From contig CAWDXE010000001.1 in the NCBI GenBank assembly GCA_963806185.1, positions 224,001 through 288,000 on the forward strand: a stretch of 64,000 nucleotides of DNA, given 5' to 3'. Positions 4,653 to 50,139 of this stretch are shown here, in pieces. The translations under genes and the position numbers were made by a program. Origin of the DNA: an uncultured candidate division Zixibacteria bacterium (GTDB taxonomy: Bacteria > Zixibacteria > MSB-5A5 > GN15 > FEB-12). The notes beneath the pieces were generated by a model. The model was not told where the DNA came from. It ran no database searches and saw nothing but the letters and a program-made list of their open reading frames with translations. Position 1 is the stretch's first letter, and each line of letters opens with the position of its first letter.

Positions 4653-5351
4653 ATGATCACTGCGAGGAAATCGTCCGAGCGCGGCCAGGCCGATCACGGC
4701 TGGCTGCAGACTTTTCACACTTTCTCCTTTGCGGATTACCATGATCCGGAGCACACCAGCTTTCGCCAGTTGAGAGTCATCAACGAAGATTGGGTGGCGC
4801 CGACGCGCGGGTTCGCGGCGCATCCTCATCGCGATATGGAAATCGTGACCTACATCCTTGAAGGGGAGTTGGAGCACAAGGATTCGATGGGCACGGGATC
4901 GGTAATTCGGCGGGGTGACGTGCAGCGGATGAGCGCCGGCAGCGGTGTCGTGCACAGCGAATTCAATCCCTCGACCGAGCAACCTGTTCATCTCTGGCAA
5001 ATATGGTTGTTTCCTGACCAGCGTGGACGCCGGCCCGAATATGAGCAAAAGACTTTCGATGACCACACCAAGCTGAATCAGTTGCGACTGATTGTGTCGC
5101 CTGACGCAGCGGAAGGGGCGATCGGGATTCACCAGGATGTGCGCGTCTTCGCTTCCATTTTGGAAGCGGGTCATCAGGTTCAGCACGAATTTGTGTCCGG
5201 TCGCCATGGCTGGCTGCAGCTTGCCTCCGGTCGAGTGACGGTTAACGGTGTACCGCTGGCGTCAGGGGACGGAGCGAGGATTAGCGACGAGGCCGCGCTA
5301 ACGATTGCGGCCAACGAGCGGGCTGAGTTTCTGCTTTTCGACCTCAACTGA
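4653..5351 (+). CDS. Pirin family protein (YhhW-like bicupin)
   Basis: HTFSFADY, LRVINED, HPHRDMEI, QRMSAGSGVVHSE, QIW motifs; RBS aaggag. Confidence 0.95.
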   Translation: MITARKSSERGQADHGWLQTFHTFSFADYHDPEHTSFRQLRVINEDWVAPTRGFAAHPHRDMEIVTYILEGELEHKDSMGTGSVIRRGDVQRMSAGSGVVHSEFNPSTEQPVHLWQIWLFPDQRGRRPEYEQKTFDDHTKLNQLRLIVSPDAAEGAIGIHQDVRVFASILEAGHQVQHEFVSGRHGWLQLASGRVTVNGVPLASGDGARISDEAALTIAANERAEFLLFDLN

Positions 5352-5603
5352 GGGACGTTTGGCTTTGCACGGAGCCATGAGAGGTTCTGGCAGGTCTCCC
5401 TTATCGGGCACGGGGCGGGTCGATTTTCGAACGGCTAATCCCTTAGGTGAAATGGACTTCACCAGCGGCAGAAGTGGATTCCATCAGATCGACGTGACCA
5501 CACCCGTGGCTCATCATCTTGGAACGTGAAATCGACTATATAGCCTTCCAATCGAGGCGTCGTTGTTGCGCGGCTAACCTCTCTGCCACCAGTAATTTAC
5601 TGG

Positions 5604-5632
5604 TTGACAATCGTACGATTTCACGGTATACT
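5604..5632 (+). promoter_or_regulatory. Sigma-70-type promoter for the first large secreted protein
   Basis: TTGACA (5604-5609), 17-nt spacer, TATACT (5627-5632); abutted upstream by the palindrome ccagtaa-t-ttactgg (5589-5603). Confidence 0.7.
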
Positions 5633-6110
5633 TTTATGTGCCGGAGACTGTATAGATGTTTTTGTAAATAGACCAGTTATACGCGTTCGTGTCGGGGTTG
5701 GACGACTCCTGCCGATTCGCGCTTCGAAGCACATATTTGGGTAACCATTACCGGCGCTTCTGCGTCGCCGGAAAGAGTGACCGTGATTGCAGTGTTGACA
5801 AGCGGTAATCCCCATACCGCGATGGCAACGACCCTGAGCATTGGGGTCGTCGGGCCAGTTATTTATCTTTTGATTGTATTTGCAGTTCAGAATTACGTCC
5901 GATTACACGTGCAGAATTGGCATCGGAAACAGTGTTACTCCGCTCTGCCGGGCAGCGTCGTGATATCGCGCTGCAGGAAAGGAGGTATTTCGATGCAATG
6001 AGCCCGCTGATCGGCGTTGCGGGTGGCACGAACGCCGACCGAGCTGAGGCAAGATGTAAGCGCTGTGCTGCAGAGCGGAGCGCTGATCGAACATTCAGGA
6101 ATCGAAAGGA

Positions 6111-9100
6111 ATGAAAATGATCAGGAAGCTTACAGTGTTGCTCGTCCTTAGCCTGATTGCGATCGCGTTTATCGCGGTTTCCATCGACGCTAAGTCGGTT
6201 TTCGACAAAGGCAAGCGTGTCGTCGACGAGCGGACCAATAAAGTCACGACCTTCAGTTTCACGGGCAAACGTCCTCTCGTGGCCCGTGGCGACGTACCCG
6301 AGCTCCCCACGCCGACCACGTCGAGCGCCGTCCGCTCATCGCTGGGCGTTCCGGCGACTGCCGGACAGTCGGCGTCTCCGGGATTTACGGTTGACGTATC
6401 GTATAATGACGACCAGTACATTCCGTCGGCCGGTCACCAGGTCGAATGGCGGGGTACGTCGCCGTACGTGCAATTCGCGTATGGCAACGCCAATTCGAAG
6501 GGAGATATCAGCCGATTCGGCTATAACGTGTATGACCCGGTTCTGGGCAACTGGCCGCGCACGGCGGAAGTTGGCTGCGAGATTCAGGGTGCCGGCGATA
6601 TCGGGACCCAGGTCGACATGTCGCTCAATTCGAGCGGATTTGTGGTGATTGGCGGCGTGGACGGAACGACCACGGCCACCCAGGACAACCACTTTTTCTT
6701 CCAGACGGCGAAGTTCAGCTGTACGTGGGGCACCGGCACGAAGATAGCGGCGAGCCAGTACAATGTGAACTTCCTGGCGTCGACAAACCTGCTGCACCAC
6801 CCGCGCATAGAGTCGCAGACCTGGGCTGGTCAGACCTACACGCACGTGGTGGCGGTAGAGAGCAAAGTGCAGGATGTGACGACAGAGTTCCGTCGCAACA
6901 CGCTGCATTATTTCCGCAAGGTAGGGACGGCACAGGCCGGGACCTGGACCGGTCCGGTCACGCTTGACACGATCGCGTCGGTGTCGAATTCCCAGCGGGT
7001 CAACGCAGCCAGCATCGTGTCCTCGCGGGTGTCGCCGAAAGTGGCCGTCGTGTATGTAGTACCGACGGCTGAGGGTTTAGCCCATCAGCAGCGGTATGAC
7101 GCGGACATCTGGTACACCGAGTCTGACTCGGTGGGCGCCACCTGGGGACCGCGGGTCAACATGACCGGTTTCCATCATGACGTCGCCTCCAAAACATCTT
7201 TTATGGGATCGGTCGGTTTCTACGATACGCAGGGTTTCCTGCACATCATTTTTGATGCTACCGACGTTCCTGCCGGCGCGTATGACCCGGCGTCCTCGTA
7301 CTTCTGGGGAGATTTCTCGAACAGCCTCTATCACTGGTCGAAGCGTGTGGCTGGGACGTACGCTGGCGGCACGATCGCCAAGATCCACAACTCTGAATGG
7401 GGCATTGATCTCAACACCGAGGTTTGCGGATTCGGCTCTCCGGGTACCGGATACACCGGGTTCTATTCGGTGGCCGAGTGCGACGGTCGTTTGTACGTCA
7501 TATTCACCCAGTATCTTGACTATTTTGGTATTTTCACCGGCACGTCGCACATTGATGACTGCGCGGTGGGTGCGTCGGACCGTCTCTACGCCGCCAACGG
7601 CGAGGTGTGCGTCTGCGTCTCGTCCGATCGTGACGGTATGCTCTGGGATGCCGCACGTAACCTGACGAACACGTATACGCCTAACTGCGACTCGGCGGGC
7701 GGAACCGGCGGCGAATGCGCCAACGACACGCGGCCGACCGTATCGCGGTATGGAATGAACGTCAATTCGTTTGACACCAATGCGGTGCACGTGAACCTGA
7801 CCTGGCCGGGGACGGATCTGATCGTTCCGGCGGGTGGTACGGCCGATTCGATGTTCCTGCATGTCTTCTATACGGCCGACAAGTTCCCGGCGCCGGGCTG
7901 GCGCGATACGACGACCTACAACCGGGCGACGCCGAACCCGCTCAAGTGGATGCGTCTGGCTTGTGTCGATCCTATCAGTGCGCCGCAGATTCGGGTGTCG
8001 CCGAACCTGATCGCCTATCCGGAGTACACCAAGCATAATACGCAGAAGAGCGTGACGGTCACGGTGACCAACGAAGGGAACGAAGATCTGCATGTGACCA
8101 CGATCGGGACGGACAAGGTCAGTCCGATCACGCCGAACTGGCTGGCCACCTCGGTGGGAAGCCTGACGGTCGCGGCGGGTCAATCGAACACAGGAACGTT
8201 TAACGTCCTGCTTAACGGTCCCGGCCTGATCAACAGCCCGGGGACGGTAGTGGCGCTGAACGGTGAAGTGTATTTGTTATCGGATGCACCGGCGCCGCGC
8301 GACTCGGTATCGATCTTTATCGAGAACTTCCTGGTGGCCGACACGGTGGTGGGTCTGGACTTTGACACGGTGGTGACCTGCGGCGTGGAGTTGATGGTGG
8401 ACAACCATGGGAACATGGGCAGCCAGGGTCAGGGCAAGGTCAATCTGGACTTTGTCGGCTCGGGTGAGTGCGACACGTCGGGGGCGAAAACCTACCTGTA
8501 TGACGGTGGACCGATGTTGATTCGGAACCTGGGTGGTGGTTCGTTTGTGTACAGCAACGCGTTGTTTGAAGATGACTTCAGCACGGCCCAGTCGTTCAAG
8601 CCGTTGACGGGTCCGGTGCCGGCCAGTTTCGTGGGTCCGGCGGGCTCTGACGGTTATTTCACGGGCACTTTTGTGACTCGTGACACGGCGGTGGGCATGC
8701 AGTTGCGGTACTACGGTCCGACGGACGGTGGCGACAACTGCGACTTCGTCATTCAGCAGATGAAGGTGTTCAAGATGACGCCGGGGACGCTGACGGGAAT
8801 CACGGTTGGTCAGGGGATCGACTGGGATATTCGTTCGGACAGCGGTGCGCAGAACTCGTTCAATCGTTCGGGGGTAGCGACCGACTCGTCGTTTGTGTAC
8901 CAGCGTGGTGTGGACACGGGCGCGGTGACCGGTTGCAATCCTGATTCGGGTCGTTATGGCGCCCAGGCGGTGCTGGGGATGTACCTGAAGTCGGACAGTG
9001 TGGCCAACAATTGCGCCACGAGCAACATTTACGGTATGTACGCGCAGTACAATGACACGTTGTTCAAGTACGACACGTTGTCGGAGAATCTGGAAGCGAA

Positions 9101-9557
9101 CTTCTACTGGAACGAGATGGGGATCGCCGGCTATCGCAGTCGTGCGGGGGTTCGCGATTTCCATATGATCACGACCTACAAGTACAACACGAGTTTGAGC
9201 AACACCGACACGTTGACCTGTTGGACGGTGATGACGTCCGTGCGGAACGGGACGTTGACCGATCTGGCGGCCAATGTGGCGGCGGCCAAGGCCTGGTTCT
9301 TTGCCAATCTGCGTCCGGGTTGCGGATCGTGTTGTGTCGGCAGCGTGGGTAATATTGATGGTGACATCACTGACGGCGTTGACGTTGGTGACCTGACCAA
9401 GTTGATCAACAACCTGTTCATCACCTTTGAAGCGATAGCCTGTCCGGCGGAAGCCAACTGTGATGGCGATCCGCTGAACAGTGTCGACGTAGGTGATTTG
9501 ACGGCACTGATTAACAACCTGTTTATTACGTTCGCGCCGCTTCCTGCCTGTCAGTAA
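6111..9557 (+). CDS. Large secreted protein, copy 1 (Asp-box/beta-propeller-like region, Ig-like domain, C-terminal dockerin-like domain)
   Basis: Signal peptide; Asp-box-like SDSVGATW; Ig-like PQIRVSP...VTVTNEGNEDL; C-terminal CCVG-GNIDGD...DVGDLT.LINNLFITF repeated twice (duplicated Ca-loop-helix). Confidence 0.85.
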   Translation: MKMIRKLTVLLVLSLIAIAFIAVSIDAKSVFDKGKRVVDERTNKVTTFSFTGKRPLVARGDVPELPTPTTSSAVRSSLGVPATAGQSASPGFTVDVSYNDDQYIPSAGHQVEWRGTSPYVQFAYGNANSKGDISRFGYNVYDPVLGNWPRTAEVGCEIQGAGDIGTQVDMSLNSSGFVVIGGVDGTTTATQDNHFFFQTAKFSCTWGTGTKIAASQYNVNFLASTNLLHHPRIESQTWAGQTYTHVVAVESKVQDVTTEFRRNTLHYFRKVGTAQAGTWTGPVTLDTIASVSNSQRVNAASIVSSRVSPKVAVVYVVPTAEGLAHQQRYDADIWYTESDSVGATWGPRVNMTGFHHDVASKTSFMGSVGFYDTQGFLHIIFDATDVPAGAYDPASSYFWGDFSNSLYHWSKRVAGTYAGGTIAKIHNSEWGIDLNTEVCGFGSPGTGYTGFYSVAECDGRLYVIFTQYLDYFGIFTGTSHIDDCAVGASDRLYAANGEVCVCVSSDRDGMLWDAARNLTNTYTPNCDSAGGTGGECANDTRPTVSRYGMNVNSFDTNAVHVNLTWPGTDLIVPAGGTADSMFLHVFYTADKFPAPGWRDTTTYNRATPNPLKWMRLACVDPISAPQIRVSPNLIAYPEYTKHNTQKSVTVTVTNEGNEDLHVTTIGTDKVSPITPNWLATSVGSLTVAAGQSNTGTFNVLLNGPGLINSPGTVVALNGEVYLLSDAPAPRDSVSIFIENFLVADTVVGLDFDTVVTCGVELMVDNHGNMGSQGQGKVNLDFVGSGECDTSGAKTYLYDGGPMLIRNLGGGSFVYSNALFEDDFSTAQSFKPLTGPVPASFVGPAGSDGYFTGTFVTRDTAVGMQLRYYGPTDGGDNCDFVIQQMKVFKMTPGTLTGITVGQGIDWDIRSDSGAQNSFNRSGVATDSSFVYQRGVDTGAVTGCNPDSGRYGAQAVLGMYLKSDSVANNCATSNIYGMYAQYNDTLFKYDTLSENLEANFYWNEMGIAGYRSRAGVRDFHMITTYKYNTSLSNTDTLTCWTVMTSVRNGTLTDLAANVAAAKAWFFANLRPGCGSCCVGSVGNIDGDITDGVDVGDLTKLINNLFITFEAIACPAEANCDGDPLNSVDVGDLTALINNLFITFAPLPACQ

Positions 9558-9630
9558 GCAGTCGAACCGATAGACGGTGACGATGAGATACGGCCACCTC
9601 CCCCCGGGGGGTGGCCGTACGTGTTTGCGG
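6204..9630 (+). repeat. ~3.4-kb direct repeat, copy 1 (partner at 10222-13643)
   Basis: Near-identical nucleotide sequence at an offset of about 4015-4018, extending about 70 nt past the stop codon; divergent patch at about 6980-7660. Confidence 0.95.
9589..9627 (+). terminator. Hairpin/terminator downstream of copy 1
   Basis: tacggccacctcccccc/ggggggtggccgta GC-rich stem followed by cgtgttt; identical copy after copy 2. Confidence 0.6.
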
Positions 9631-9774
9631 AAAAAATCCAGAGGATCGGCATGCTTCCGGGTCGACGGGGGTCGGGCGTTCCCGGGCTGGAAGCGGATTC
9701 AGGACAAAATCGGTCAAGGGGAATTCCTTAGGCCACTAGTTGCTTGCAGGACAAGGGCCCCGCTGAAATTGGCA

Positions 9775-9803
9775 TTGACAAAATCCGTCGCTGCATATAC
9801 ATT
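9775..9803 (+). promoter_or_regulatory. Sigma-70-type promoter for copy 2
   Basis: TTGACA (9775-9780), 17-nt spacer, TACATT (9798-9803). Confidence 0.6.
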
Positions 9804-10134
9804 TCGTATGCTGGAGAGGTTTGCCTTAGGGACAGAGTATCCGGGCCCGGGCCTTCAACGCTACTTCGTCTCGAAGATAGATTTCTACAATTTATTGATC
9901 GTGCATACGTGAGAACATAACCGACAATCGACCTTGGACGATAAGGTCGCCTCCGTCGTAGTCACGATATCGGCGGGACAAGGAAAGGAGGTAATCTCAG
10001 CAACGAGTAACACGGCGTTCGGCCCTCGGCTTTGGGCCATCGGACGCGCATGCTGTGCGTGTAGAAATGGACACGCAGAGCATTGCTAGCTTCTTCTTTG
10101 GGACAATTATTTGGGAATCGAAAGGAGCACGGGA

Positions 10135-13100
10135 ATGATAAAGAGACTTCCCACGCTGTTTATTTGCGTTCTTGTTGCAGTGGCCTTCATTGCTGCTTCC
10201 GTGGATGCAAAATCGAATTTTGACAAAGGCAAGCGTGTCGTCGACGAGCGGACCAATAAAGTCACGACCTTCAGCTTCTCCGGTAAGCGCCACCTGGTTG
10301 CTCAGGATGACGTACCGGAGCTCCTCACGCCGACCACGTCGAGCGCCGTCCGCTCATCGTTGGGCGTTCCGGCGACTGCCGGACAGTCGGCGTCTCCGGG
10401 ATTTACGGTTGACGTATCGTATAATGACGACCAGTACATTCCGTCGGCCGGTCACCAGGTCGAATGGCGGGGTACGTCGCCGTACGTGCAATTCGCGTAT
10501 GGCAACGCCAATTCGAAGGGAGATATCAGCCGATTCGGCTATAACGTGTATGACCCGGTTCTGGGCAACTGGCCGCGCACGGCGGAAGTTGGCTGCGAGA
10601 TTCAGGGTGCCGGCGATATCGGGACCCAGGTCGACATGTCGCTCAATTCGAGCGGATTTGTGGTGATTGGCGGCGTGGACGGAACGACCACGGCCACCCA
10701 GGACAACCACTTTTTCTTCCAGACGGCGAAGTTCAGCTGTACGTGGGGCACCGGCACGAAGATAGCGGCGAGCCAGTACAATGTGAACTTTTTGACCACG
10801 GCCAACCTGCTGCATCACCCGCGCATAGAGTCGCAGACCTGGGCTGGTCAGACCTACACGCACGTGGTGGCGGTAGAGAGCAAAGTGACGGACCTGACGA
10901 CAGAGTTCCGTCGCAACACGCTGCATTATTTCCGCAAGGTAGGGACGGCACAGGCCGGGACCTGGACCGGTCCGGTCACGCTTGACACGATCGCGTCGTC
11001 GTCCAACTCTCAGCGCGTGAACTGCGCCAGTATCGTAGCCTCCCGCACCTCACCTAAGGTGGCGGTGGTCTATACCGTACCGACGGCCGAAGGTTTGGCG
11101 CATCTGCAACGGTACGACAACGATGTCTACTTTACGGAATCAGATTCCGTGGGCGCGACCTGGGGCGCGCGCGTCAATATGACCAACTACACGCACACGA
11201 CAGCATCATTTACGGCAAACCTCGGTGCTTTTGGTCTGTACGATTCGCAGGGGTTCCTGCACATTTTGTTCAGCGCACAGCCGGTTGATGCTCTTCCGTA
11301 TGCTCCCACGTCGTCCTTCTTCTGGGGAGATTTCTCCTGCTCGCTGTTCCACTGGTCGAAGCGTGTGGCCGGGTCGAATGCCGGCGGCACGATCGCCAAG
11401 GTACACAATGCCGAGTGGGGCATCGACGTTAACACCGAAGTCTGCGGATTCCCGAGCCCGGGTTCTTCTTATCTTGGGTTCTATTCGCTGGCCGAGTGCG
11501 ACGGTCGTTTGTATGCGGTGTTCAGCCAGTACAACGACTACTATGGCAACTTCGGCACGTCGCACATTGACGACTGCGCGGTGGGTGCGTCGGACCGTCT
11601 CTACGCCGCCAACGGTGAAGTCTGCGTAACCGTATCATCCGATCGTGACGGTATGCTCTGGGATGCTGTTCGTAACCTGACGAACACGTATACGCCTAAC
11701 TGCGACTCGGCGGGCGGAACCGGCGGCGAATGCGCCAACGACACGCGCGCCACGGTATCGCGGTACGGAATGAACGTCAATTCGTTTGACACCAATGCGG
11801 TGCACGTGAACCTGACCTGGCCGGGGACGGATCTGATCGTTCCGGCGGGTGGTACGGCCGATTCGATGTTCCTGCATGTCTTCTATACGGCCGACAAGTT
11901 CCCGGCGCCGGGCTGGCGCGATACGACGACCTACAACCGGGCGACGCCGAACCCGCTCAAGTGGATGCGTCTGGCTTGTGTCGATCCTATCAGTGCGCCG
12001 CAGATTCGGGTGTCGCCGAATCTGATCGCCTATCCGGAGTACACCAGGCACAATACGCAGAAGAGCGTGACGGTCACGGTGACCAACGAAGGGAACGAAG
12101 ATCTGCATGTGACCACGATCGGGACGGACAAGGTCAGTCCGATCACGCCGAACTGGCTGGCCACCTCGGTGGGAAGCCTGACGGTCGCGGCGGGTCAATC
12201 GAACACAGGAACGTTTAACGTCCTGCTTAACGGTCCCGGCCTGATCAACAGCCCGGGGACGGTAGTGGCGCTGAACGGTGAAGTGTATTTGTTATCGGAT
12301 GCACCGGCGCCGCGCGACTCGGTATCGATCTTTATCGAGAACTTCCTGGTGGCCGACACGGTGGTGGGTCTGGACTTTGACACGGTGGTGACCTGCGGCG
12401 TGGAGTTGATGGTGGACAACCATGGGAACATGGGCAGCCAGGGTCAGGGCAAGGTCAATCTGGACTTTGTCGGCTCGGGTGAGTGCGACACGTCGGGGGC
12501 GGACACCTACCTGTATGACGGTGGACCGATGTTGATTCGGAACCTGGGTGGTGGTTCGTTTGTGTACAGCAACGCGTTGTTTGAAGATGACTTCAGCACG
12601 GCCCAGTCGTTCAAGCCGTTGACGGGTCCGGTGCCGGCCAGTTTCGTGGGTCCGGCGGGCTCTGACGGTTATTTCACGGGCACCTTTGTGACTCGTGACA
12701 CGGCGGTGGGCATGCAGTTGCGGTACTACGGTCCGACGGACGGTGGCGACAACTGCGACTTCGTCATTCAGCAGATGAAGGTGTTCAAGATGACGCCGGG
12801 GACGCTGACGGGAATCACGGTTGGTCAGGGGATCGACTGGGACATTCGTTCGGACAGCGGTGCGCAGAACTCGTTCAATCGTTCGGGGGTAGCGACCGAC
12901 TCGTCGTTTGTGTACCAGCGTGGTGTGGACACGGGCGCGGTGACCGGTTGCAATCCTGATTCGGGTCGTTATGGCGCCCAGGCGGTGCTGGGGATGTACC
13001 TGAAGTCGGACAGTGTGGCCAACAATTGCGCCACGAGCAACATTTACGGTATGTACGCGCAGTACAATGACACGTTGTTCAAGTACGACACGTTGTCGGA

Positions 13101-13572
13101 GAATCTGGAAGCGAACTTCTACTGGAACGAGATGGGGATCGCCGGCTATCGCAGTCGTGCGGGGGTTCGCGATTTCCATATGATCACGACCTACAAGTAC
13201 AACACGAGTTTGAGCAACACCGACACGTTGACCTGTTGGACGGTGATGACGTCCGTGCGGAACGGGACGTTGACCGATCTGGCGGCCAATGTGGCGGCGG
13301 CCAAGGCCTGGTTCTTTGCTAATCTGCGTCCGGGTTGCGGATCGTGTTGTGTCGGCAGCGTGGGTAATATTGATGGTGACATCACTGACGGCGTTGACGT
13401 TGGTGACCTGACCAAGTTGATCAACAACCTGTTCATCACCTTTGAAGCGATAGCCTGTCCGGCGGAAGCCAACTGTGATGGCGATCCGCTGAACAGTGTC
13501 GACGTAGGTGATTTGACGGCACTGATTAACAACCTGTTTATTACGTTCGCGCCGCTTCCTGCCTGTCAGTAA
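10135..13572 (+). CDS. Large secreted protein, copy 2 (paralog of 6111-9557)
   Basis: Same architecture as copy 1; ATG at 10135 follows RBS aaggag and gives signal peptide MIKRLPTLFICVLVAVAFIAASVDA. Confidence 0.85.
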   Translation: MIKRLPTLFICVLVAVAFIAASVDAKSNFDKGKRVVDERTNKVTTFSFSGKRHLVAQDDVPELLTPTTSSAVRSSLGVPATAGQSASPGFTVDVSYNDDQYIPSAGHQVEWRGTSPYVQFAYGNANSKGDISRFGYNVYDPVLGNWPRTAEVGCEIQGAGDIGTQVDMSLNSSGFVVIGGVDGTTTATQDNHFFFQTAKFSCTWGTGTKIAASQYNVNFLTTANLLHHPRIESQTWAGQTYTHVVAVESKVTDLTTEFRRNTLHYFRKVGTAQAGTWTGPVTLDTIASSSNSQRVNCASIVASRTSPKVAVVYTVPTAEGLAHLQRYDNDVYFTESDSVGATWGARVNMTNYTHTTASFTANLGAFGLYDSQGFLHILFSAQPVDALPYAPTSSFFWGDFSCSLFHWSKRVAGSNAGGTIAKVHNAEWGIDVNTEVCGFPSPGSSYLGFYSLAECDGRLYAVFSQYNDYYGNFGTSHIDDCAVGASDRLYAANGEVCVTVSSDRDGMLWDAVRNLTNTYTPNCDSAGGTGGECANDTRATVSRYGMNVNSFDTNAVHVNLTWPGTDLIVPAGGTADSMFLHVFYTADKFPAPGWRDTTTYNRATPNPLKWMRLACVDPISAPQIRVSPNLIAYPEYTRHNTQKSVTVTVTNEGNEDLHVTTIGTDKVSPITPNWLATSVGSLTVAAGQSNTGTFNVLLNGPGLINSPGTVVALNGEVYLLSDAPAPRDSVSIFIENFLVADTVVGLDFDTVVTCGVELMVDNHGNMGSQGQGKVNLDFVGSGECDTSGADTYLYDGGPMLIRNLGGGSFVYSNALFEDDFSTAQSFKPLTGPVPASFVGPAGSDGYFTGTFVTRDTAVGMQLRYYGPTDGGDNCDFVIQQMKVFKMTPGTLTGITVGQGIDWDIRSDSGAQNSFNRSGVATDSSFVYQRGVDTGAVTGCNPDSGRYGAQAVLGMYLKSDSVANNCATSNIYGMYAQYNDTLFKYDTLSENLEANFYWNEMGIAGYRSRAGVRDFHMITTYKYNTSLSNTDTLTCWTVMTSVRNGTLTDLAANVAAAKAWFFANLRPGCGSCCVGSVGNIDGDITDGVDVGDLTKLINNLFITFEAIACPAEANCDGDPLNSVDVGDLTALINNLFITFAPLPACQ

Positions 13573-13643
13573 GCAGTCGAACCGATAGACGGTGACGATG
13601 AGATACGGCCACCTCCCCCCGGGGGTGGCCGTACGTGTTTGCG
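10222..13643 (+). repeat. ~3.4-kb direct repeat, copy 2
   Basis: See copy 1; divergent patch at about 10999-11672. Confidence 0.95.
13604..13640. terminator. Hairpin between copy 2 and the convergent zinc-ribbon gene
   Basis: Same GC-rich stem as at 9589; lies between convergent stop codons. Confidence 0.55.
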
Positions 13644-13664
13644 GGAAGAGCCCCGGGAGCGCTC

Positions 13665-15056
13665 TCAAACCCTCACAGCAGCGCGCTCGACGGTGACGGC
13701 CCCCACAAGGGAATCCACCCAGAAATAGCTTTCCTGGTGAAACGGCAGGTATACGAGTTGCCAAGCCGTGGGCATGAACTTGGCGGCCAATAACGTCGAC
13801 TGTCTCTCGATGGCGGCCCGGGTGAGCAGGGCATCGGCCAGATTGATCGCCTCATCATATGACACCGTCACGGGCGGGAGCTTGGACGGTACCTCGTCGG
13901 AGAGTCCCCGCGAGATCAAGTCAGCGCCGGAGGCACGACGGACCAGTCGGAAGGCGGCTTCAACGTTGGGCATCTCGAAGGCCGGGAGCATCAGCCACTC
14001 CGGCGGATATTGATAGCCGAAGAATCGCATGATTTCCTTCCGATCGAGATCGCGAATCTGAAATGCCCAAAACGGGAGATACGAATCACCGGTGAAGCCC
14101 GGCAGGCAGTGAGCCGAAGTGACTGTGCCGGCACAGTTGCCGAGAAGAGTCCAGCGACCGCAGCTCGCGCAATGGTACACGAGTGAAACGGTTGATTCAA
14201 AATCGGTTCCGCAGGTAGCACAGCAAAGGGATTCAACAATGACAGTCTGGACCGGGGTATTCACGGTGGGCGGTTCCGGCCCGGATACATTTTGGTCAGG
14301 TTGTTCAGCGCACGAGACCACATTGCCGGTAACACCATCGACGATAAGTCGAAAGGCACTGGACGAATAGCACTCGGCCACCATATACGGAAAGTGGATT
14401 AGTGAAAAGACAGGATTGAGAAGTTCAGTCCGATTGACGCCGGAACCGGGCGAGTCCAGCGAATCGAGCCGATCCAGACCGGTTCGGATTCTCGTGGCCG
14501 CCTCCTCCCTCGGGCGAACGACCGACAAGACATCAAACGCGGCTTCCCGATACGGCTCCGCAAAGGGAAACAGCTTAAGGTATGCGGCGCGCAAACCGAG
14601 CGTATCAGGAAAGTCAGCCGATCCCGCACCGGCGGCTATGGCGTTTACGTAGGGAGTCAGGCTGACCGTGCGAACGTTTTGAGTCTCCTCCACGTCAGCG
14701 GATGGATCGATCTCGTTGGCGTGGATGCGCGTGACACTGGAGTTACGGATCTTGAGAAGCGAAGCGTCGATTTTCCAGTACGGGTAGTACACCCATTTCA
14801 TCAGGAGGTCATGGCCCGTGAGGGGCAAGCCGTGTTCCTTGAGATAGCGATCAATCAGAAACCGGAGTTGTGATTCGGTCCTGGTGACGCGCGCCACCCA
14901 AGCCGCTGCCCCCTGGGGCATGACAATGCGCAGGGAGGCGCCACAATGGGCACAGCGGGTCGCGCGGATGGAATCCAGGAATTCCAATTCAGCGCCGCAG
15001 CCGGGGCAGGTGCAACCGAAAACGAGTCCGGCGTCAGGCCGACGTTGAATCGCCAT
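13665..15056 (-). CDS. Zinc-ribbon protein of unknown function (two CxxC...CxxC units, internal repeat; YdjG-like)
   Basis: CPGCGA...CAHCG at the N-terminus and CATCG...CASCG internally; repeated Y[YL]P[YF]W and [LI]x[HY]xP[YF]...VD motifs. Confidence 0.7.
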
Positions 15057-16168
15057 TGTTCACCGACGTTGCCACAATTTCCACAGAACTTGGAGCCGGG
15101 GATCAACTCGGCTTTGCAATTGGGGCAATGCACCTTTTCATCCAGGCGATGACCGCAATAGAGGCAGAAATTCGCCTCGGTAGGAATTTCCCGCTGACAA
15201 GCGAGGCAGCGATTCTGAGCCACCATCGGGTGGCCGCAGCGGTAGCAATACCGTGATTGTTCCGGAGTATCGGTATGGCACTTGGGACAGGTGACGGTGG
15301 CTACCGGCTCGCGCCTGAGTTCTGTCTGATCGGGCGAGAAGACCTTGGTCATGAGACTAGGCAGCATGACACCGACTCCAGCCGCCATGCCGATACCCGC
15401 ACCGGTGCCTGCGGCGCCACCGGTAGCCCCCAGTCCTTTCGCCATCTCGTATTTCATGAACTTGTCGAGGTCACCTACCGCCTCAATGCCGGAGCGCTGG
15501 TCGATCATCTGCCCTACTTCATCCGGCGGAGTGATCGAGGAGATGAAGAAATCGACGAGGGTCAGGCCGTACTTTTCGAATTCGACTCGAACGATGTCTT
15601 TGAAGTTTTCGGCCAGTTCAGTATACTTGGCCGGCAATTCGAGAAGGGTATCGAGCGTCTCGCCAAGCAGGTCGTTCATCCGGGCGACGATGACGTCGCG
15701 GAGGTAGTCCTGTATGTCCGACGTCGTGTACTTCGCCTGACGGCCGACGATGGAATTCAGGAACAGCATCGGTTGAGTGATGCGCATGGTGAAGGCTCCG
15801 TGGCCACGGAGACGAACCAGGCCGAGTTTACTGTCCTTGAAAGTGACAGGCAGTTTGGTCCCCCATTTGAGTTCGGTAAATGTCTTGAGGTTAACGAAGT
15901 AGACCTCGGCCCGAAAGGGCGAGGTGAAGCCAAAGGGGAACGAAAGCAAGCGAGTGAGTATTGGGATGTTCAAGGACGAAAGGGTATGGCGTCCAGTGGT
16001 GAAGGAATCGCAGGCGTGGCCGTCCTTGAAGAAGATCGCCATCTGACTGTCGCGGACGATGAGTTGTGCGCCGAGTTTGAAATCGGCTGATCCCTCCTGC
16101 GGCAGACGATAGATCATTTCTTTGCCGGTCGGATCGACCCATTCGATGACTTCGATCAAAAGTGACAT
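14855..16168 (-). CDS. SPFH/band-7 domain protein with C-terminal double zinc ribbons (YdjI-like)
   Basis: Start [10 protein letters not shown] after RBS gaaggag; [25 protein letters not shown] motifs; three CxxC-x10-CxxC units. The last ~65 codons overlap the next gene and may be read-through. Confidence 0.85.
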
Positions 16169-16333
16169 GGCTGCTCCTTCAATACTGTAACTGCTTGCTA
16201 TATGGCCGTTTTCGGCAATTCGCGGCGATATTAGACTTGCCTCGGCGACGGTCCGGGGGTGTCCTTTTCGCTTGTGGCATATGCAGGTTGGGCCTGTAGA
16301 ATTGGGAAACTTCTGACCGAGGTAGCGGGTTAA

Positions 16334-16939
16334 GTGGGGAGTGAAAGCGTACAATCTTGTAACAGAAGATACTACGAATGGAACGATCAGATCGAGAATC
16401 TTCAGAAGATGTATCACGACCTCCTGGTCGGCGTCGGTGAGGATGTCAGTCGCGAAGGGCTGGTCAAGACCCCCGAACGGGCAGCCCGGGCAATAGAGTT
16501 TCTGACCCGTGGCTACACGCAAGATGTCGAAGAGATCATTAACGACGCCTATTTCCAGTCGGATACTGACGAGATGATCCTGGTAAAGGATATCGAATTG
16601 TACTCGTTGTGCGAACATCATCTTCTGCCCTTCATCGGAAAGTGTCATGTGGCGTACATGCCCATGGGGCGAATCATCGGTCTGTCGAAGATTGCGCGGA
16701 TTGTGGACGTCTTCGCGCGACGTCTTCAGGTTCAGGAACGTCTGACCAAGCAGATAGCAGACACCTTGATGACCCATCTGGGGGCACGCGGCGTTGCCGT
16801 GGTGATCGAGGCTCAGCATTTGTGCATGATGATGCGAGGTGTGGAAAAACAGAATTCAGTGATGAAGACCTCGTGTTTGCTGGGCGCATTTCGCAATTCC
16901 CCGTCGACCCGAGCGGAGTTCCTCAGTCTGATCAAGTAG
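16334..16939 (+). CDS. folE: GTP cyclohydrolase I
   Basis: [48 protein letters not shown]. Exact start uncertain. Confidence 0.97.
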
Positions 16940-40947: not shown

Positions 40948-42496
40948 TCAATTGGAATGGAATGTACTCAGTGCGGGGGAATGCAGCCCGTAGGCAGCCG
41001 GGATCTGGTTCGCGAACTGGAGAATCGGCTCAGGGAACAGACCAAACAGAACGACGCCCACCAAGCCAACCATGACCACGATCATCGCGGCACGGGAAGG
41101 CCGGAATGCAGCGGTGTCGGCGGTGGGATTGAAGTACATAGCGCGAATGACTCCGGCATAGTAGTAGAGGCCGAAAACCGAAGTGAGCAGGCCAATGCCG
41201 ACCACCCAGTAGAGCCAGGAGAAGCTCGGGCCTACGCCGGCCATTTTGATGGCCGCGGCGAAAACGTAGTATTTCGCGAGGAAACCGGCCAGGGGCGGTA
41301 TGCCGGTCAGCGACAGGAGAAAGACGCTGAGGGTACCGGCCAGGAAAGGAGAGCGGCGCGACAGGCCGTTGTAAGCGTCGATTTCGCATGAGCCGGTCTT
41401 GTCTTCGATGATGGCTACGATGGCAAAGGCACCCATGTTGGCGAACAGGTAAGCGAACATGTAAAAGCCGACCGAAGCGAGGCCGAGCTCGTTGACGGCG
41501 ATCATGCCGATCATGACGTAACCGGCCTGGGCAATCGACGAATAGGCCAGCATACGCTTGATGTTGGTCTGGCGAATCGCCAGTACATTGCCGATCACCA
41601 GTGCGGCATCGCCAGAGCGCCGGCAATGATTCCCCAATCGTTGGGGCTCATGACCGGATCGTAGAAGGCGAACAATCCGTTGACGATGATCTTGGCGAAC
41701 GCGACCAGCCCGGCGGCCTTGGAACCGACCGACAGGAAAGACGCGACCGGGGTCGGCGCACCTTCATAGACATCCGGCGCCCACTGGTGGAAGGGCGGCA
41801 GCGCCAGTTTGAAGCCGAGGCCGGCCAGAATGGTCGCGGTTGCCAGAATCAGCACCACGCCGATATCACCGCCATTGCCCAATTGGGTGATGGCGATATT
41901 GACTTTCATCTGCAGAATGTCGGTCGTGCCGGACAGACCGTACAGGAACGACAGACCGTAGAGCAGCACGGCCGAGGAGAAGGCGCCGATGATCAGATAC
42001 TTGATGCCGGCTTCGACGGAAAGGCGATCATCCTTGAAGAAGGCGGCCAGCACGAACAGCGGGATGGTGGTCAGTTCAAGGCCGATATACAGCGACAGCA
42101 ATTCGTTGCTTGAGCGCCAGAAACATCATGCCGACGGTCGAGAGCAGGATCAGGCCGAAGAACTCGCCGCGATGGTTGATGATCTTTTCGCTGAACGATG
42201 CCGAACGACGAGCCGATGGCCATGAAGGCGGCGCCGAGGAAGATGATTTTGAAGAACAGGGCGAGCGGGTCGTTGAAGAACATCGTCCCGAAGCCAGACC
42301 GAAACCGTAGACACCGGCGCAAGAGAGCCCACAGAGAAGCCGGCGACAACCAGGCCGACCATGGCGAGGTAGGCGACGCTGTGGCCGACTTACGGCTGGT
42401 GAACAGGTCGTAGGTGAACACCAGGAGCGCCCAGCCGAAGAGAATGATCTCCGGGGCCATCAGCCAAAGGTTATAGTCGGGCAGTGTCGTTTCCAT
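40948..42496 (-). CDS. nuoN: NADH-quinone oxidoreductase subunit N (apparent frameshifts)
   Basis: Fragments: APE, EAGIKY, GFKL..PPFH.WAPDVYEGAP, KRMLAYSSI, SL.GIPPLAGF..K. Confidence 0.9.
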
Positions 42497-42500
42497 ACGT

Positions 42501-43988
<1,488 letters not shown>

Positions 43989-43993
43989 ATGTC

Positions 43994-46113
43994 TTATCTA
44001 CCTCTATACACCGACCTTAGGTTTTTCGATTTCTTCTGCGGTTCGAGTCTGGCCTCGCGCGTGAATATGACTTTCGACGCAATGCCGAGAGCAACGAGGC
44101 CGGCGACGAAAAACGTCGTCAACATCGGCCAGCCGACAGACTTGAACAGGACGCCTTCAATTTTCGCCAACATCACCACGATGATGCCACCGAGGAGAAA
44201 CAGGGCATAGAATTGAACCGCGCCGCTCTGCATGTATTTCAGGAAAGAGCCGAAAGTACGGACGAGCCAGCCCGAACCGTTGACGGCGCCATCGATAATC
44301 CATTTGTCGAACCACATCTTGATGTCCGCCCAGAGGACCGTCAGCCAGGCGGTGCCGTTGACGGCGCCATCGACAACGTTGGCGTCAAAACTCCACATGA
44401 AGCGGCTGATGGCCAGGATGGGCCGGATCAATATCAGATCATAAAGTTCATCAAAATAGTATTTGTTGTACAGGAGCGTGTAGATCGGTCTGAATCTGCG
44501 CCGCAAGCGCATCGGCTGAGATCGACTTCTTGATAGTACATCAGGTAGGCGAGCCCGATACCGGCGAGAGAGATCACCGTCGAGAGCGCCATCATGAAGT
44601 AATTTGGCGCGGCATGATGCGGTTCGCCGTGGAAGACGAACGATGAAAAACCGTGCGACAACCAGGGGAGCGCCACCCAGCCGGCGCAGACCGAAAGCAC
44701 GGCCAGGAGAATCAGCGGATAGGTCATAACGTTCGGCGATTCGTGAGCGTGGTCATAGCGATGCTGATTGCGCGGCTCGCCGAAGAAGGTCAGGAAGCAG
44801 AGCCGCCACATGTAGAAGGCGGTCATGAAGGCGATAGTCAGCGTGCCGATGAAGAAGACCGGATGATGCAGGGTCGTGGCGATGATTTCATCTTTCGACC
44901 AGAAGCCGGATAACGGGAAGATGCCGGCGATCGACAGCGAGGCGATCAGAAAGGTTTTGCTGGTGATCGCCGAGTTTCCTGTTCAGGCCGCCCATCTCCT
45001 GAATGTCGTTGGTGTGCACGGCGTGAATGACCGAACCGGCGCCGAGGAACAGCAGCCCTTTGAAAGAAGGCGTGGGTCATCAGGTGAAGAGTACCGGCGA
45101 CAAAACCGGCGGAGTGTTCGCCGAGGGCGGTATCGTGACCATACAGGCCGAGGGCCATGATCATGTAACCGAGCTGGGAGACGGTCGAATAGGCGAGAAT
45201 TCGTTTAATGTCGTTTTGGACCAGGCCGATGGTGGCAGCCAGGAACGAGGTAATCAGGCCGATGATGGCGACGACCATGGAGGCTTCGGCCGAGCCGACG
45301 AAGATATTCATTGAGCGCGCGACCAGATAGACGCCGGCGGCGACCATGGTGGCGGCATGGATGAGGGCGGACACCGGGAGTCGGGCCTTCCATAGCGTCG
45401 GGCAGCCAGACATGCAGCGGGAACTGGGCGGACTTTCCGACCGCGCCGCAGAAGAGGAAAATGGCGGCGGCGGTCAGGATGGCCGGCGGAATCTGCCACC
45501 GGCAACTTTGTCAAACACCTCATGGTAGTTGAACGTGCCACAGTAGATGCCGATCAGCATCAGGCCGATGATGAAGCCGAGATCGCCGATGCGGGTGGTG
45601 ATGAACGCCTTCTTGCCGGCATCGGCCGCGCTCTTCTTTTCGAACCAGAAGCCGATCAGGAGGTAGGAGGTCACGCCGACCAGCTCCCAGAAGATGAAGA
45701 TCATGAAGAAGTTGTTGGCCAGCACGAGACCCGAGCATCGAGAACAAGAACAGCGACAGGTAGGCGAAGAAGCGGCTGAAGCGCGGGTCGTCTTTCATGT
45801 ACCCGAGCGAATAGATCTGCACGCAGGCACCGACGGTGGTCACCACGACCAGCATAATGGCGGTGATGGAATCGACCAGAATGCCAATTTCGAAGTTGAG
45901 TCCGGAAAATGAAGTAATCAGCGTGCGCCACTCGTACGATTCGCCATGGCGAGCAATCGTCTCGAAGAGAATGACAATCGACATCACCCAGCCGATGAGG
46001 ATCGTCGCGATAGAGAAGCCGGCCGAGACCTTTTCGTTCCAGCGCAGGAAGAAGACGATCAGGGCAAACGAGAGAAGCGGCAGGAGCGCAATCAAATAGG
46101 CATGTTGTGTCAT
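43994..46113 (-). CDS. nuoL: NADH-quinone oxidoreductase subunit L (apparent frameshifts)
   Basis: YS.GYM..D...[67 protein letters not shown]. Confidence 0.92.
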
Positions 46114-46123
46114 GTATCTTCCC

Positions 46124-46423
46124 TCACCACTTCATCACGCTGAAGTTATCGGAGTCAACGCCGCGCCAGTTTCGGTAGACGAGCAATACGATCGCCAGGC
46201 CGACGGTCGCTTCGGCGGCGGCCATCGCCACGATGAAGATCGCGAAGATCTGTCCGGACATGCCGGCGGTGGCGACAAATTTGTTGAAGGCCACAAAATT
46301 GATATTGGCCGCGTTGAACATCAGCTCGAGCGACATCAGGATGCCGATGGTGTTGCGGCGCGTAATCACACCAAAGAGACCGATGGCAAACAGGATGGCC
46401 GCCAGGATCAGGTAATATTGCAT
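46124..46423 (-). CDS. nuoK: NADH-quinone oxidoreductase subunit K
   Basis: LF.IGL.G..TRRN...LMS.ELM.NA, AAAEA.VGLAI; intact, 99 aa. Confidence 0.95.
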   Translation of the reverse strand: MQYYLILAAILFAIGLFGVITRRNTIGILMSLELMFNAANINFVAFNKFVATAGMSGQIFAIFIVAMAAAEATVGLAIVLLVYRNWRGVDSDNFSVMKW

Positions 46424-46931
46424 CAGGCCCTCTCCCCTCTTGCCAGGACGATGGCGCCGATCAGCGCGGCCACGAGCAGGACCGAGATCAATTCGAACGG
46501 GCAGCATGAATTCAGTCAGAAGCAGTTTGCCGATCACGAACGTGTTTTTCAACGGCAGGGCGTTGGCGCTAAGTCGCCAGATATCGGTGGCGCCGATCAG
46601 AAGCGACGCAACGGCGACGAAGAACAGGCAGATGAAGGCCCCGGTGACGGCGTGCTGATTGACCTGGGCGATGCGCTGGCCGGCCAGATTCGAGGTCAAC
46701 ATGATGGCGAACATCATCAGAATGGAGACCGCGCCTACATATATGAGCACCTGCGCGGCCGCCAGGAACTCGGCATGCAAGCAGGATGAATATACCGGCC
46801 ACCGCCGAGAGCGAGACAATCAACGCCAAGGCGCAATGGAAGATATTCTTGAGACTCACAACGAGCAAGCCGGCGAGCACGATCACAAAAGCGAGGATCC
46901 AGAACACAATGCCGACGTCAGGCTGCATCAT
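46423..46931 (-). CDS. nuoJ: NADH-quinone oxidoreductase subunit J (apparent frameshifts)
   Basis: KN.FH.AL.L, AEFLAAAQVLIYVGA..IL..FAIML, IG..L..EF.LP. Confidence 0.88.
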
Positions 46932-47479
46932 CACTTTGCCTCTCCTTCGGGATCTCCGTCGGGCTTGCGGCATCGGTGCTCGGGCTGCTCGGCGCGGCGA
47001 CCAGGAGCGGCGGCCGCAGCCGGAGCTTTCTTCTTTCGGGTGTCGACATAGTCGACATTGCGGCCATTCGCCTGCAACTTCTCCATATCCCAGATGGTGT
47101 CGCTCTTGGTGAGCGTGGAAAATTCGTACTTGGGAGCCATCTTCAGAGCGCTGAAGTTGCAGGCCTCTTCGCAGAGTCCGCAGATAGCAGCAAATGCCGA
47201 AATCGATCTGGAAATTCTGCAGATGACGTTTCTTGGCCTCGTCGCGCGGAGCGTCGATAACGATCGCGCCGGTGGGACAGGCGCGCATGCAGAGCATGCA
47301 GGCGGTGCAATTGAGTTCGCCGGTTTCCTTATCCGAAAGCAGGACGACGATGCCGCGCGACCGCTCGGGCATGGTCATTTTCTGTTCCGGATACTGAATA
47401 GTGATGGCATGGCGGCCGAGATGCTTGCTGGTGATCCTCATCCCGGTGAGGAGTTCTTTATGTCTTTCCAGATTCCCAT
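46931..47479 (-). CDS. nuoI: NADH-quinone oxidoreductase subunit I (apparent frameshifts)
   Basis: T.QYPE, RSRG, CTACMLCMRACP; second ferredoxin motif split by a frameshift. Confidence 0.88.
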
Positions 47480-47495
47480 CGTTATCGTCCTTGTC

Positions 47496-49666: not shown

Positions 49667-50139
49667 TTATCAAACTCCGGCAACCGAATGAAATCGGGCG
49701 CGTCCCAATCCTTGCGCATCGGATACCCCTGATTCCAGTCGTCGGGCAGCAGGAATCGTTTCAGGTTGCCGTGATTGCGGACGTTGATGCCGTACAGCTC
49801 CCACATTTCGCGTTCGAACCAGTTGGCGGCCGGCCAGATGGTCTGAATGGAGTCGAGCTCGGCACTATCGTACGGCAGGATCAACTTGAAATCCAGGCGG
49901 AGATTCTTGCACGAACAGGCGAGATTGTACACCACCTCGAAATTCGTCTTATTGTCCAGCGCCCCCATATTGCAGAGCGTGTCCATGCAGGTAGTCGAAT
50001 CGTCACGCAATGCTTTGGTTACCGCGAGAAGATCATACGGCTCGATTTGAAACATCGGATCGTGACGGCCGGTGTCGAGAAGCTTCAACTTGCCGTCGAA
50101 GTGAGCAACGATGTAGGCTTTCAGTTCGTCCTTGGTCAT
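49663..50139 (-). CDS. nuoC: NADH-quinone oxidoreductase subunit C
   Basis: FEVVY.L, SI..IWPAANW.ERE..EL.GI....H..L.R.LLP..W.G.P.RKD. Confidence 0.93.

What the first reader, a model, noticed from the sequence alone, without database searches (positions are those of the whole stretch)
6111..13643. Tandem surface-protein paralogues, nearly identical except for one deeply diverged cassette
Seen: the two ~3.45-kb genes are almost identical at nucleotide level, including synonymous sites and ~70 nt of 3' flank. However, about 6980-7660 versus 10999-11672 differ at many synonymous and non-synonymous positions. Smaller patches differ near 6770-6800, 6870 and 7730, and the signal peptides and promoters differ too. 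The variable part lies in the Asp-box/propeller-like region. Inference: an old duplication is being homogenised by gene conversion while a ligand- or phage-facing surface stays distinct, or a cassette was imported by recombination. Separate promoters would allow switching between variants.
Basis: partly seen in the sequence, partly recalled or inferred. Interest (0 to 1): 0.7.

Follow-up and report, generated by a model that had tools for sequence, protein, structure and literature searches.

The report
Gene-converted tandem propeller surface proteins
Two neighbouring genes of a bacterium likely belonging to the uncultured Zixibacteria encode almost identical, likely secreted proteins that differ mainly in one 190-residue stretch of a predicted propeller domain, likely because DNA copying between old duplicates erased most other differences while that likely ligand-binding part was kept distinct; this is a clean new case of a known evolutionary pattern.

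Summary
Observation confirmed. Genes A (6111-9557) and B (10135-13572) differ at 174 nt in codons 290-480 (dS about 1.6, dN/dS about 0.14), but at 1 of 462 and 9 of 1809 nt in the flanking tracts. The proteins are predicted to be signal peptide, seven-bladed beta-propeller, two beta domains and a dockerin-like tail; homologues are labelled Zixibacteria. The island covers blades 4, 5 and half of 6. The pair is old: another genus has two family genes at the same locus, and B's leader best matches the leader of that genome's second gene, yet A and B are each other's closest relatives (AU p 6e-56). So old duplicates were homogenised, most likely by tract-wise gene conversion. Contigs from two studies carry both types, so an artefact is unlikely, although no record spans both copies. 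The island is not a fast region between genomes, which hints at selection, but top-face enrichment was not significant. Phage pressure and switching have no support. The scan earlier noted a cohesin-dockerin system elsewhere in this genome, not this mosaic. Known kind (flaA/flaB-like concerted evolution) in an uncharacterised family.

The parts
5604..5632 (+). sigma70-like promoter candidate of A (11/12 consensus), about 480 nt upstream of the start
   Evidence: 1 found, shuffle mean 0.8; consensus match only
5977..5986 (+). Family leader motif GAAAGGAGGT, Shine-Dalgarno-like, about 133 nt before the start of A
6111..9557 (+). Gene A, 1148 aa: signal-peptide-like N-terminus, propeller, Ig-like and beta-rich domains, dockerin-like tail
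6375..7970 (+). Predicted seven-bladed beta-propeller of A (aa about 89-620)
6343..6772 (+). 430-nt tract identical in A and B
6773..6876 (+). Two small retained patches (aa 221-229 and 254-256), on inferred top-face loops
6981..7556 (+). Divergence island in A (aa 290-480; blades 4, 5 and strands a-b of blade 6)
7601..7751 (+). Satellite patches of old divergence (aa 497-515 and 541-547)
7752..9630 (+). Near-identical 3' part with its flank (identical tracts of 254, 450, 179, 158, 476 and 252 nt)
9342..9554 (+). Dockerin-like double repeat; 92% nt identical to the tail of the distant paralogue on contig C6
9589..9619 (+). GC-rich hairpin after A (copy after B at about 13604-13633); terminator-like, no U tract called
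9634..10134 (+). Unique spacer and leader of B; single copy in the genome; best matches the leader of the second gene of the syntenic pair in G022
9775..9803 (+). sigma70-like promoter candidate of B (10/12 consensus)
   Evidence: 2 found, shuffle mean 0.4
9983..9992 (+). Family leader motif, about 151 nt before the start of B
10135..13572 (+). Gene B, 1145 aa, same architecture
10999..11571 (+). Divergence island in B
13665..15056 (-). Zinc-ribbon protein gene; synteny marker directly after the pair here and in G022

Best explanation
A and B are two full-length tandem genes for predicted secreted seven-bladed propeller proteins with dockerin-like tails, likely an old pair whose coding sequences were likely homogenised by repeated gene-conversion tracts, leaving one island of old divergence in propeller blades 4-6 that selection likely keeps distinct so that the two proteins would bind different ligands. 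Shown: the mosaic, saturated synonymous divergence under purifying selection in the island, the conserved two-gene locus, and A+B as sister sequences. Inferred: RecA-type conversion as the copying route; surface display through dockerin-cohesin binding; selection on the island; a glycan as the most likely ligand. My odds per step: real arrangement 0.93, old pair plus conversion 0.8, selection on the island 0.55, glycan ligand 0.4.
For: (1) Locus age. G022, another genus, has M16 peptidase, then two family genes, then zinc-ribbon and SPFH genes, in the same order as the window. Among 31 other family leaders, B's best match is that of G022's second gene (score 64, z 11.5; next 49, z 6.9). (2) A+B are sisters at 100/100 and in all 5 region trees. 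Holding B with the second-position genes is rejected, AU p 5.6e-56. (3) A relative's contig (run X4) is B-type at 23 of 30 diagnostic sites (A-type 3, other 4), yet differs at 16 of 95 sites where A=B. X4 also holds an A-type leader and N-terminus at 6.5% divergence, and a contig with 10 listed differences inside the 430-nt A=B tract. (4) Conversion-like tracts occur family-wide: identical runs up to 144, 135, 114 and 111 nt in paralogues of G012, G016, G014 and G022, and four-fold-site difference of 0-17% in the tail of 7 of 18 within-genome pairs against about 20-90% in most other windows. (5) The island is not fast between records: block/rest ratio 0.60-1.30 in 16 pairs, none significantly above 1, against 21.7 for A/B and 1.8 and 1.47 for two G022 paralogue pairs. 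(6) All 6 loop differences outside the island lie on inferred top-face loops, 0 of 74 bottom-loop residues. RecA is present; 3 cohesin matches pass the cut-off.
Against: No record spans both copies. dN/dS in the island is about 0.14, so there is no sign of positive selection. Top versus bottom loops is not significant: 22/79 vs 4/30, p 0.14 inside; 6/112 vs 0/74, p 0.08 outside, in only 3 patches; variability-weighted test p 0.42. Shared positions with the G022 pair: 21 observed, 16.5 expected, p 0.058. Only 3 of 14 within-genome pairs peak in this block; 10 are flat and G009 shows the reverse (ratio 0.65, p 4e-4). A's leader does not match G022's first gene. X4 fragments range from 3% to 15% divergence and may come from several organisms. 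The between-record pairs share members and their orthology rests on the tree only. Fold matches do not show function: the top four lie within 1.2 Z and include a lyase-family protein, a virginiamycin lyase, CylK and YncE.
Confidence: 0.6

Rival explanations
1. Neutral remnant. The same old pair and conversion, but the island survives only because about 30% nucleotide divergence blocks tracts from starting in it; it is a passing state without functional meaning.
For: dN/dS about 0.14. Face and parallel-site tests not significant. 11 of 14 within-genome pairs show no peak here. Purely synonymous remnants also persist elsewhere.
Against: Equally old divergence was erased over about 2.5 kb on both sides. 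A tract anchored in those flanks could cover 576 nt (general knowledge, not tested). Two G022 pairs peak in the same block. The B-type start of the island is shared with a relative about 16% diverged.
Confidence: 0.2
2. Cassette import. A recent duplication or full homogenisation was followed by recombination that brought a diverged blade 4-6 segment, most likely into A, from a related lineage.
For: P0057 carries aa about 240-345 from the P0026 lineage in a G022_p2b-like backbone (20 of 26 informative sites inside vs 21 of 169 outside, p 3e-11), so segment swaps occur in this family. The X4 contig is B-type, as expected if B is native.
Against: No donor found: in the block the best outside match is 51-52% for both copies against 73% between them. 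GC3 is alike in the two blocks (0.71 vs 0.72). The 5' ends, leaders and at least five further patches are also deeply diverged, which would need many imports. The p value uses boundaries chosen after seeing the data.
Confidence: 0.12
3. Assembly artefact. Two strain alleles were joined in tandem, or polishing homogenised two diverged copies.
For: No spanning record in 5 runs laid, all short contigs. The genome has broken genes elsewhere, e.g. split frames on C4 and in a C7 paralogue, and is 82% complete.
Against: The 501-nt spacer is unique in the genome and resembles neither outer flank. The same two-gene locus exists in G022. Runs X1 and X3 (different studies; at most one may be the source) hold A-specific and B-specific pieces joined to shared sequence with 0-3 differences. 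X1 has at least 2 of 3 A-specific SNPs in one 264-nt contig and both B-specific SNPs in a 314-nt contig. Contamination estimate 0.86%.
Confidence: 0.05
4. Phage-driven antigenic or phase switching. One copy is expressed at a time, or donates its block to the other, to escape phages.
For: Separate promoters. The proposed role of flaA/flaB recombination in phage escape (PMC5126078, passages; that study found no such recombination in its own escape mutants). A predicted surface location.
Against: Both genes are intact with sigma70-like sites. No close inverted repeats bracket the promoters; the best is a 70% 27-nt pair overlapping A's site. Near-identical strains of related species show few allelic differences in the block. 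One RNA run holds pieces of both types (this does not prove transcription). No phage evidence was sought or found.
Confidence: 0.08

Closest known systems
Divergence peak under interlocus gene conversion (Teshima-Innan test; Osada and Innan 2008, PMC2588116, passages read)
   Same: Old duplicates homogenised except a local peak; divergence between genomes is flat across the peak; A and B are sisters outside the peak, and a relative groups with B inside it.
   Different: Bacterial and tandem. No excess of non-synonymous change here. Retention of the same peak in a sister species is seen only in fragments.
Campylobacter flaA/flaB (PMC5126078, passages; PMC6053082, passages)
   Same: Two tandem, full-length genes about 93-95% identical, for surface proteins, each with its own promoter, under intragenomic recombination.
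   Different: flaA/flaB use sigma28 and sigma54 and differ mainly at the termini. Here both sites are sigma70-like and the difference is one internal island with saturated dS. The protein is not a flagellin.
Plasmodium DBLMSP/DBLMSP2 (PMC10919680, abstract and outline only)
   Same: Paralogous surface proteins with deeply diverged sequence in one domain, shaped by gene conversion between diverged paralogues.
   Different: Eukaryotic pathogen; conversion there shares alleles of the variable domain, whereas here the variable block is what stays unshared.
Seven-bladed BNR-type propellers: BACINT_00347 (5mum), L-rhamnose-glucuronate lyase (7esk), PL25 ulvan lyase (5uam), PLL lectin (5c9o)
   Same: Fold: 5mum Z 25.5, rmsd 3.3, 359 aligned; nearest named Atlas cluster BNR_4 at 0.83, a lead only.
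   Different: 12% identity or less, long inserted loops, no Pfam family; catalytic residues not compared; non-enzymatic propellers score almost as high.
Cohesin-dockerin (cellulosome-like) display; inferred for Cloacimonadota in PMC8542988 (search listing only)
   Same: C-terminal duplicated Asp-rich loop-helix motif (4fl4 dockerin E 2e-4); about 80 such tails and cohesin matches in the genome.
   Different: Below Pfam's dockerin threshold; binding untested; cargo is not a known cellulase.

Membership tests
Concerted evolution with a retained divergence island | Paralogues closer to each other than to positional orthologues | tested here: met
   (AU p 5.6e-56); synteny
Concerted evolution with a retained divergence island | Patchy identical tracts including synonymous sites, beyond chance | tested here: met
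   (0 of 10,000 permutations)
Concerted evolution with a retained divergence island | Island not a region of relaxed constraint between genomes | tested here: met
   ratio 0.60-1.30 in 16 non-independent pairs, orthology by tree only
Concerted evolution with a retained divergence island | Same island retained in a sister species | tested here: inconclusive
   short fragments, possibly from several organisms
Concerted evolution with a retained divergence island | Excess of amino-acid-changing differences in the island | tested here: not met
   dN 0.22, dS about 1.6
Concerted evolution with a retained divergence island | Non-reciprocal transfer seen within a population | not testable with these tools
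   only low-depth contigs were available
flaA/flaB-type alternative pair | Tandem, intact, separately promoted copies | tested here: met
   (consensus matches only)
flaA/flaB-type alternative pair | Different sigma factors for the two copies | tested here: inconclusive
   both have sigma70-like sites; other promoter types are not scanned
Silent-cassette antigenic variation (pilS/vlsE type, recalled) | Truncated or promoterless donor copy | tested here: not met
   both genes full length with promoter-like sites; no partial island copies in the genome blastn
Sialidase GH33 (a source labels P0013 exo-alpha-sialidase) | Six-bladed propeller | tested here: not met
   strand count gives seven blades and the best structural matches are seven-bladed; sequence matches cover only Asp-box stretches
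Sialidase GH33 (a source labels P0013 exo-alpha-sialidase) | Arginine triad and Tyr/Glu nucleophile pair in the site | not tested
Seven-bladed polysaccharide lyases and lectins (5mum, 7esk, 5uam types) | Seven-bladed propeller fold | tested here: met
   Z 25.5, rmsd 3.3, 359 aligned, 12% identity
Seven-bladed polysaccharide lyases and lectins (5mum, 7esk, 5uam types) | Conserved catalytic His/Tyr/Arg at the top of the channel (recalled) | not tested
   no residue-level structural alignment was returned
Dockerin | Duplicated Asp-rich loop plus helix | tested here: met
   sequence; two helices in the model; 4fl4 E 2e-4
Dockerin | Pfam Dockerin_1 above cut-off | tested here: not met
   none in A or B; 1 of 24 members at E 0.0047
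Dockerin | Binding to a cohesin | not tested
   3 of 5 cohesin matches over cut-off in G000; no complex job sent

The most novel reading that the evidence does not exclude
This family is a major surface receptor or glycan-lyase repertoire of Zixibacteria, run on a 'shared plug, private tip' rule. Gene conversion keeps the dockerin tail and stalk genome-specific, so that every copy fits the cell's own cohesin anchor. Selection protects blades 4-6 of the propeller as a swappable specificity cassette that also moves between species. A family-specific Shine-Dalgarno-like leader element co-regulates the copies. The A/B pair would be a natural chimera experiment that pinpoints the specificity site of an unknown protein family.
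Probability: 0.2. Interest if true: 0.62.

Novelty: new member of a known kind. Interest (0 to 1): 0.4.

Why it matters
The process (concerted evolution with an island of retained divergence) is known. The value lies in the target. The family is found in 40 of 41 genomes searched in this order, is often multi-copy, has no Pfam family and belongs to an uncultured phylum. The pair narrows the likely specificity determinants to 53 changed positions in two and a half blades, so two expressed domains and one chimera would test function directly. The within-genome uniformity of dockerin tails also gives a testable handle on species-specific surface docking. Searches for 'Zixibacteria + dockerin' and 'Zixibacteria + gene conversion' found 0 papers in the held library; subscription papers are not covered.

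Tried and rejected
Spanning reads: 5 runs were offered, none with more than 0.13 of the words; all 5 were laid (X5 only on 10860-11145, where nothing was laid), and no record spans both copies. Contig depths were not used as copy number or expression. Close relatives: the single-protein metagenome scan found none; the protein search found nothing above 52% apart from B; the alignment scan gave 14 loci at 27-46%, none with near-identical copies. Other tandem pairs are only 66-72% identical at nucleotide level, so the extreme state is peculiar to G000 among those examined. Top-face enrichment and parallel-site tests were not significant; faces were assigned from strand order, not coordinates. 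Rfam found nothing credible in 5340-13700 (one hit, E 0.59). The mRNA-stabilising STAB-SD reading of the leader motif (PMC12970973, passages) lost support because no RNase J match passed the cut-off with TIGR00649 in this 82%-complete genome. The motif has no conserved start codon after it. Invertible promoter: no convincing flanking repeats. Sialidase: rejected on blade number. The third domain (aa 746-1070) was not folded alone; Atlas gave only unnamed clusters (0.91-0.96), and the whole-model search barely tested it. No complex prediction was sent. An earlier-findings look-up by sequence returned nothing. Rows left out: the 57-sequence family set omits most partial proteins, duplicates of genome-derived copies and some single copies; the careful tree used 17 of the 57. 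In one search the pairs were picked by me, and several 'between-record' pairs are below the 78% written in the script's header. P0008/P0020 were taken as one contig only from equal contig length.
Full report
Observation. The window holds two co-oriented genes, A (6111-9557, 1148 aa) and B (10135-13572, 1145 aa), with one self-match of 92.9% over 3487 nt. Differences are strongly clustered. Codons 67-220 differ at 1 of 462 nt and codons 546-1148 at 9 of 1809 nt. Codons 290-480 differ at 174 nt, with pS 0.66 (dS about 1.6) and pN 0.19 (dN 0.22). The first 66 codons are also diverged. Small patches lie at 6773-6797, 6870-6876, 7601-7655, 7733-7751, 8006-8036 and 8487-8489. Identity extends about 75 nt beyond the stop through a GC hairpin. 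None of 10,000 permutations gave an identical run as long as the observed 476 nt.

What the protein is. Pfam finds nothing in A or B. Of the 42 homologues, the 10 whose source names give a taxon are mostly labelled Zixibacteria (9; one Acidobacteriota), and none but B exceeds 52% identity. The family matches 40 of 41 genomes searched, though short tail matches count in that tally. AlphaFold models (pLDDT 84.5 full length, 91.2 and pTM 0.93 for the B propeller) give a disordered N-terminus, a propeller at aa about 89-620, two beta-rich domains and a two-helix tail. The best structural matches are seven-bladed propellers: 5mum Z 25.5, rmsd 3.3, 359 aligned, 12% identity, with 2z2n, 7ron and 3vgz within 1.2 Z. 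The fold therefore does not fix function; a glycan-binding or lyase role is my inference from 5mum, 7esk, 5uam and the lectins. The tail resembles a dockerin (4fl4, E 2e-4), occurs at about 80 places in the genome, and 3 of 5 cohesin matches pass the cut-off. The signal peptide is read by eye from the sequence. By strand order the island covers blades 4 and 5 and half of blade 6.

Is it real? No record spans both copies, so the direct test is open. Indirect evidence is strong. The 501-nt spacer is single-copy and unlike either outer flank, which a joining of two alleles would not give. G022, in another genus, has two family genes at the same locus, between an M16 peptidase and the zinc-ribbon and SPFH genes. 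Tandem copies are common in the family: G022 twice, G014, G013, G002, G009 and L052. Runs X1 and X3, from different studies of which at most one may be the source, hold A-specific and B-specific pieces joined to shared sequence with 0-3 differences. X1 holds both SNP types within the near-identical part, which argues against polishing.

Age and mechanism. B's leader aligns best with the leader of G022's second gene among 31 family leaders (z 11.5); A's leader shows no matching link to G022's first gene. The coding sequences of A and B are nonetheless sisters in all five region trees and at 100/100 in the careful tree of 17 rows. Forcing B with the second-position genes costs 391 log-likelihood units (AU p 5.6e-56). 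An old two-gene locus with lineage-specific coding sequence is concerted evolution. Timing comes from a relative in run X4. One contig is B-type at 23 of 30 diagnostic sites, yet differs at 16 of 95 sites in the adjoining tract where A and B are identical. The A/B split in the island thus likely predates, and the identity beside it likely postdates, the split from that relative. X4 also has an A-type leader and N-terminus (21 differences in 321 nt). These fragments may come from more than one organism. Similar tracts occur across the family: identical runs of 111-144 nt and nearly unsaturated synonymous sites in the tails of paralogues whose propellers are about 50% identical. In G000 the tail of the distant C6 paralogue is 92% identical in DNA to A and B while the rest is about 55%. 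RecA is present.

Why the island persists. In 16 pairs of tree neighbours from different records, the block is no more variable than the rest (ratio 0.60-1.30). It is 21.7-fold enriched between A and B and 1.8- and 1.5-fold in two G022 paralogue pairs. This is the control used by Osada and Innan for selection under gene conversion (PMC2588116, passages). Against it: 10 of 14 within-genome pairs are flat and one is reversed; dN/dS is about 0.14; enrichment on top-face loops is not significant (p 0.14 inside, 0.08 outside, 0.42 weighted); overlap with the G022 pair's changed sites is borderline (21 vs 16.5, p 0.058). Selection for different ligand specificity is the reading I favour, at modest odds. 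A neutral barrier from high divergence is the main rival. Import is a real process in this family (P0057 mosaic), but no donor was found for this pair and many separate imports would be needed.

Regulation. Each gene has a sigma70-like site far upstream (consensus matches, near shuffle expectation for A) and its own hairpin downstream. No evidence of inversion or a silent copy was found. A Shine-Dalgarno-like motif, often followed by GAGTAA, lies 112-175 nt upstream of the start in 18 of 32 family genes (shuffle mean 0.5, max 4). In G000 it precedes only A, B and the C6 paralogue among 59 tail-bearing ORFs, and 8 of 1482 others. It recalls STAB-SD (PMC12970973, passages), but RNase J was not found with the query used; it stays unexplained.

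Comparison and verdict. The case works like Campylobacter flaA/flaB (PMC5126078, passages) and fits the divergence-peak model. Wang and Chen (PMC6053082, passages) surveyed full-length concerted evolution in prokaryotes and did not treat partial-gene cases such as this one in the passages seen. PMC10919680 and PMC8860441 were seen as abstract and outline only, PMC8542988 as a search listing only; no supplements were read. It is not a silent-cassette system and not a six-bladed sialidase. Literature searches for Zixibacteria with dockerin or gene conversion gave 0 papers. Verdict: real, well explained by a known process, in an uncharacterised family where it points to a testable specificity region. 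Interest 0.4.

Noticed in passing
window 5977-5986 and 9983-9992; upstream of family genes in L011-L052: Family-specific Shine-Dalgarno-like leader motif (GAA[AG]GGAGGT ... GAGTAA) 112-175 nt before the start in 18 of 32 family genes across genera; no conserved start codon follows; function unexplained.
   Followed up: partly
window 9342-9554; G000:C6:175541-175751; L026-L028, L035/L041, L036/L040, L052: Dockerin-like tails are homogenised within genomes (91-96% aa in six pairs examined, 40-82% in five others) while the rest of the paralogues is 30-75% identical; tails cluster by genome in trees.
   Followed up: partly
G000:C1:464807-466051 vs 471709-472952: A 1245-nt internal segment is 99.7% identical between two otherwise dissimilar dockerin-tailed genes; the first seems split by a frameshift in this assembly.
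   Followed up: partly
G000:C4:384034-384873 vs 386042-386880: A tandem pair of membrane proteins shares about 600 nt of near-identity in an otherwise diverged pair, a second mosaic of the same type.
   Followed up: no
P0057 (aa about 240-350 in A numbering): Mosaic family member: blade 3-4 segment from the P0026 lineage in a G022_p2b-like backbone, suggesting segment exchange between lineages.
   Followed up: partly
G000:C7:156425-159856 and C4:310000-331000: A distant family paralogue and several ribosomal-operon and RNA polymerase genes are in broken frames, suggesting residual indel errors in the assembly; the two tuf-like copies are 96.7% identical.
   Followed up: no
window 14855-16819 (-): The SPFH and zinc-ribbon ORF runs about 200 nt into the next gene with a low-complexity-looking tail; in G022 the homologue is 377 aa, so a frameshift or missing stop is possible.
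   Followed up: no
window 40951-50653 (-): NADH dehydrogenase-like subunit genes appear as short or partial ORFs, possibly further indel errors (names by eye).
   Followed up: no
L056:95-2829: Long tandem array with about 66-nt period upstream of a family gene.
   Followed up: no
G040:C1:3982550-3989515 and G026:C45:7836-14714: In two genomes of another family a family gene lies within about 3 kb of the zinc-ribbon gene, so the locus may be older than the family.
   Followed up: no
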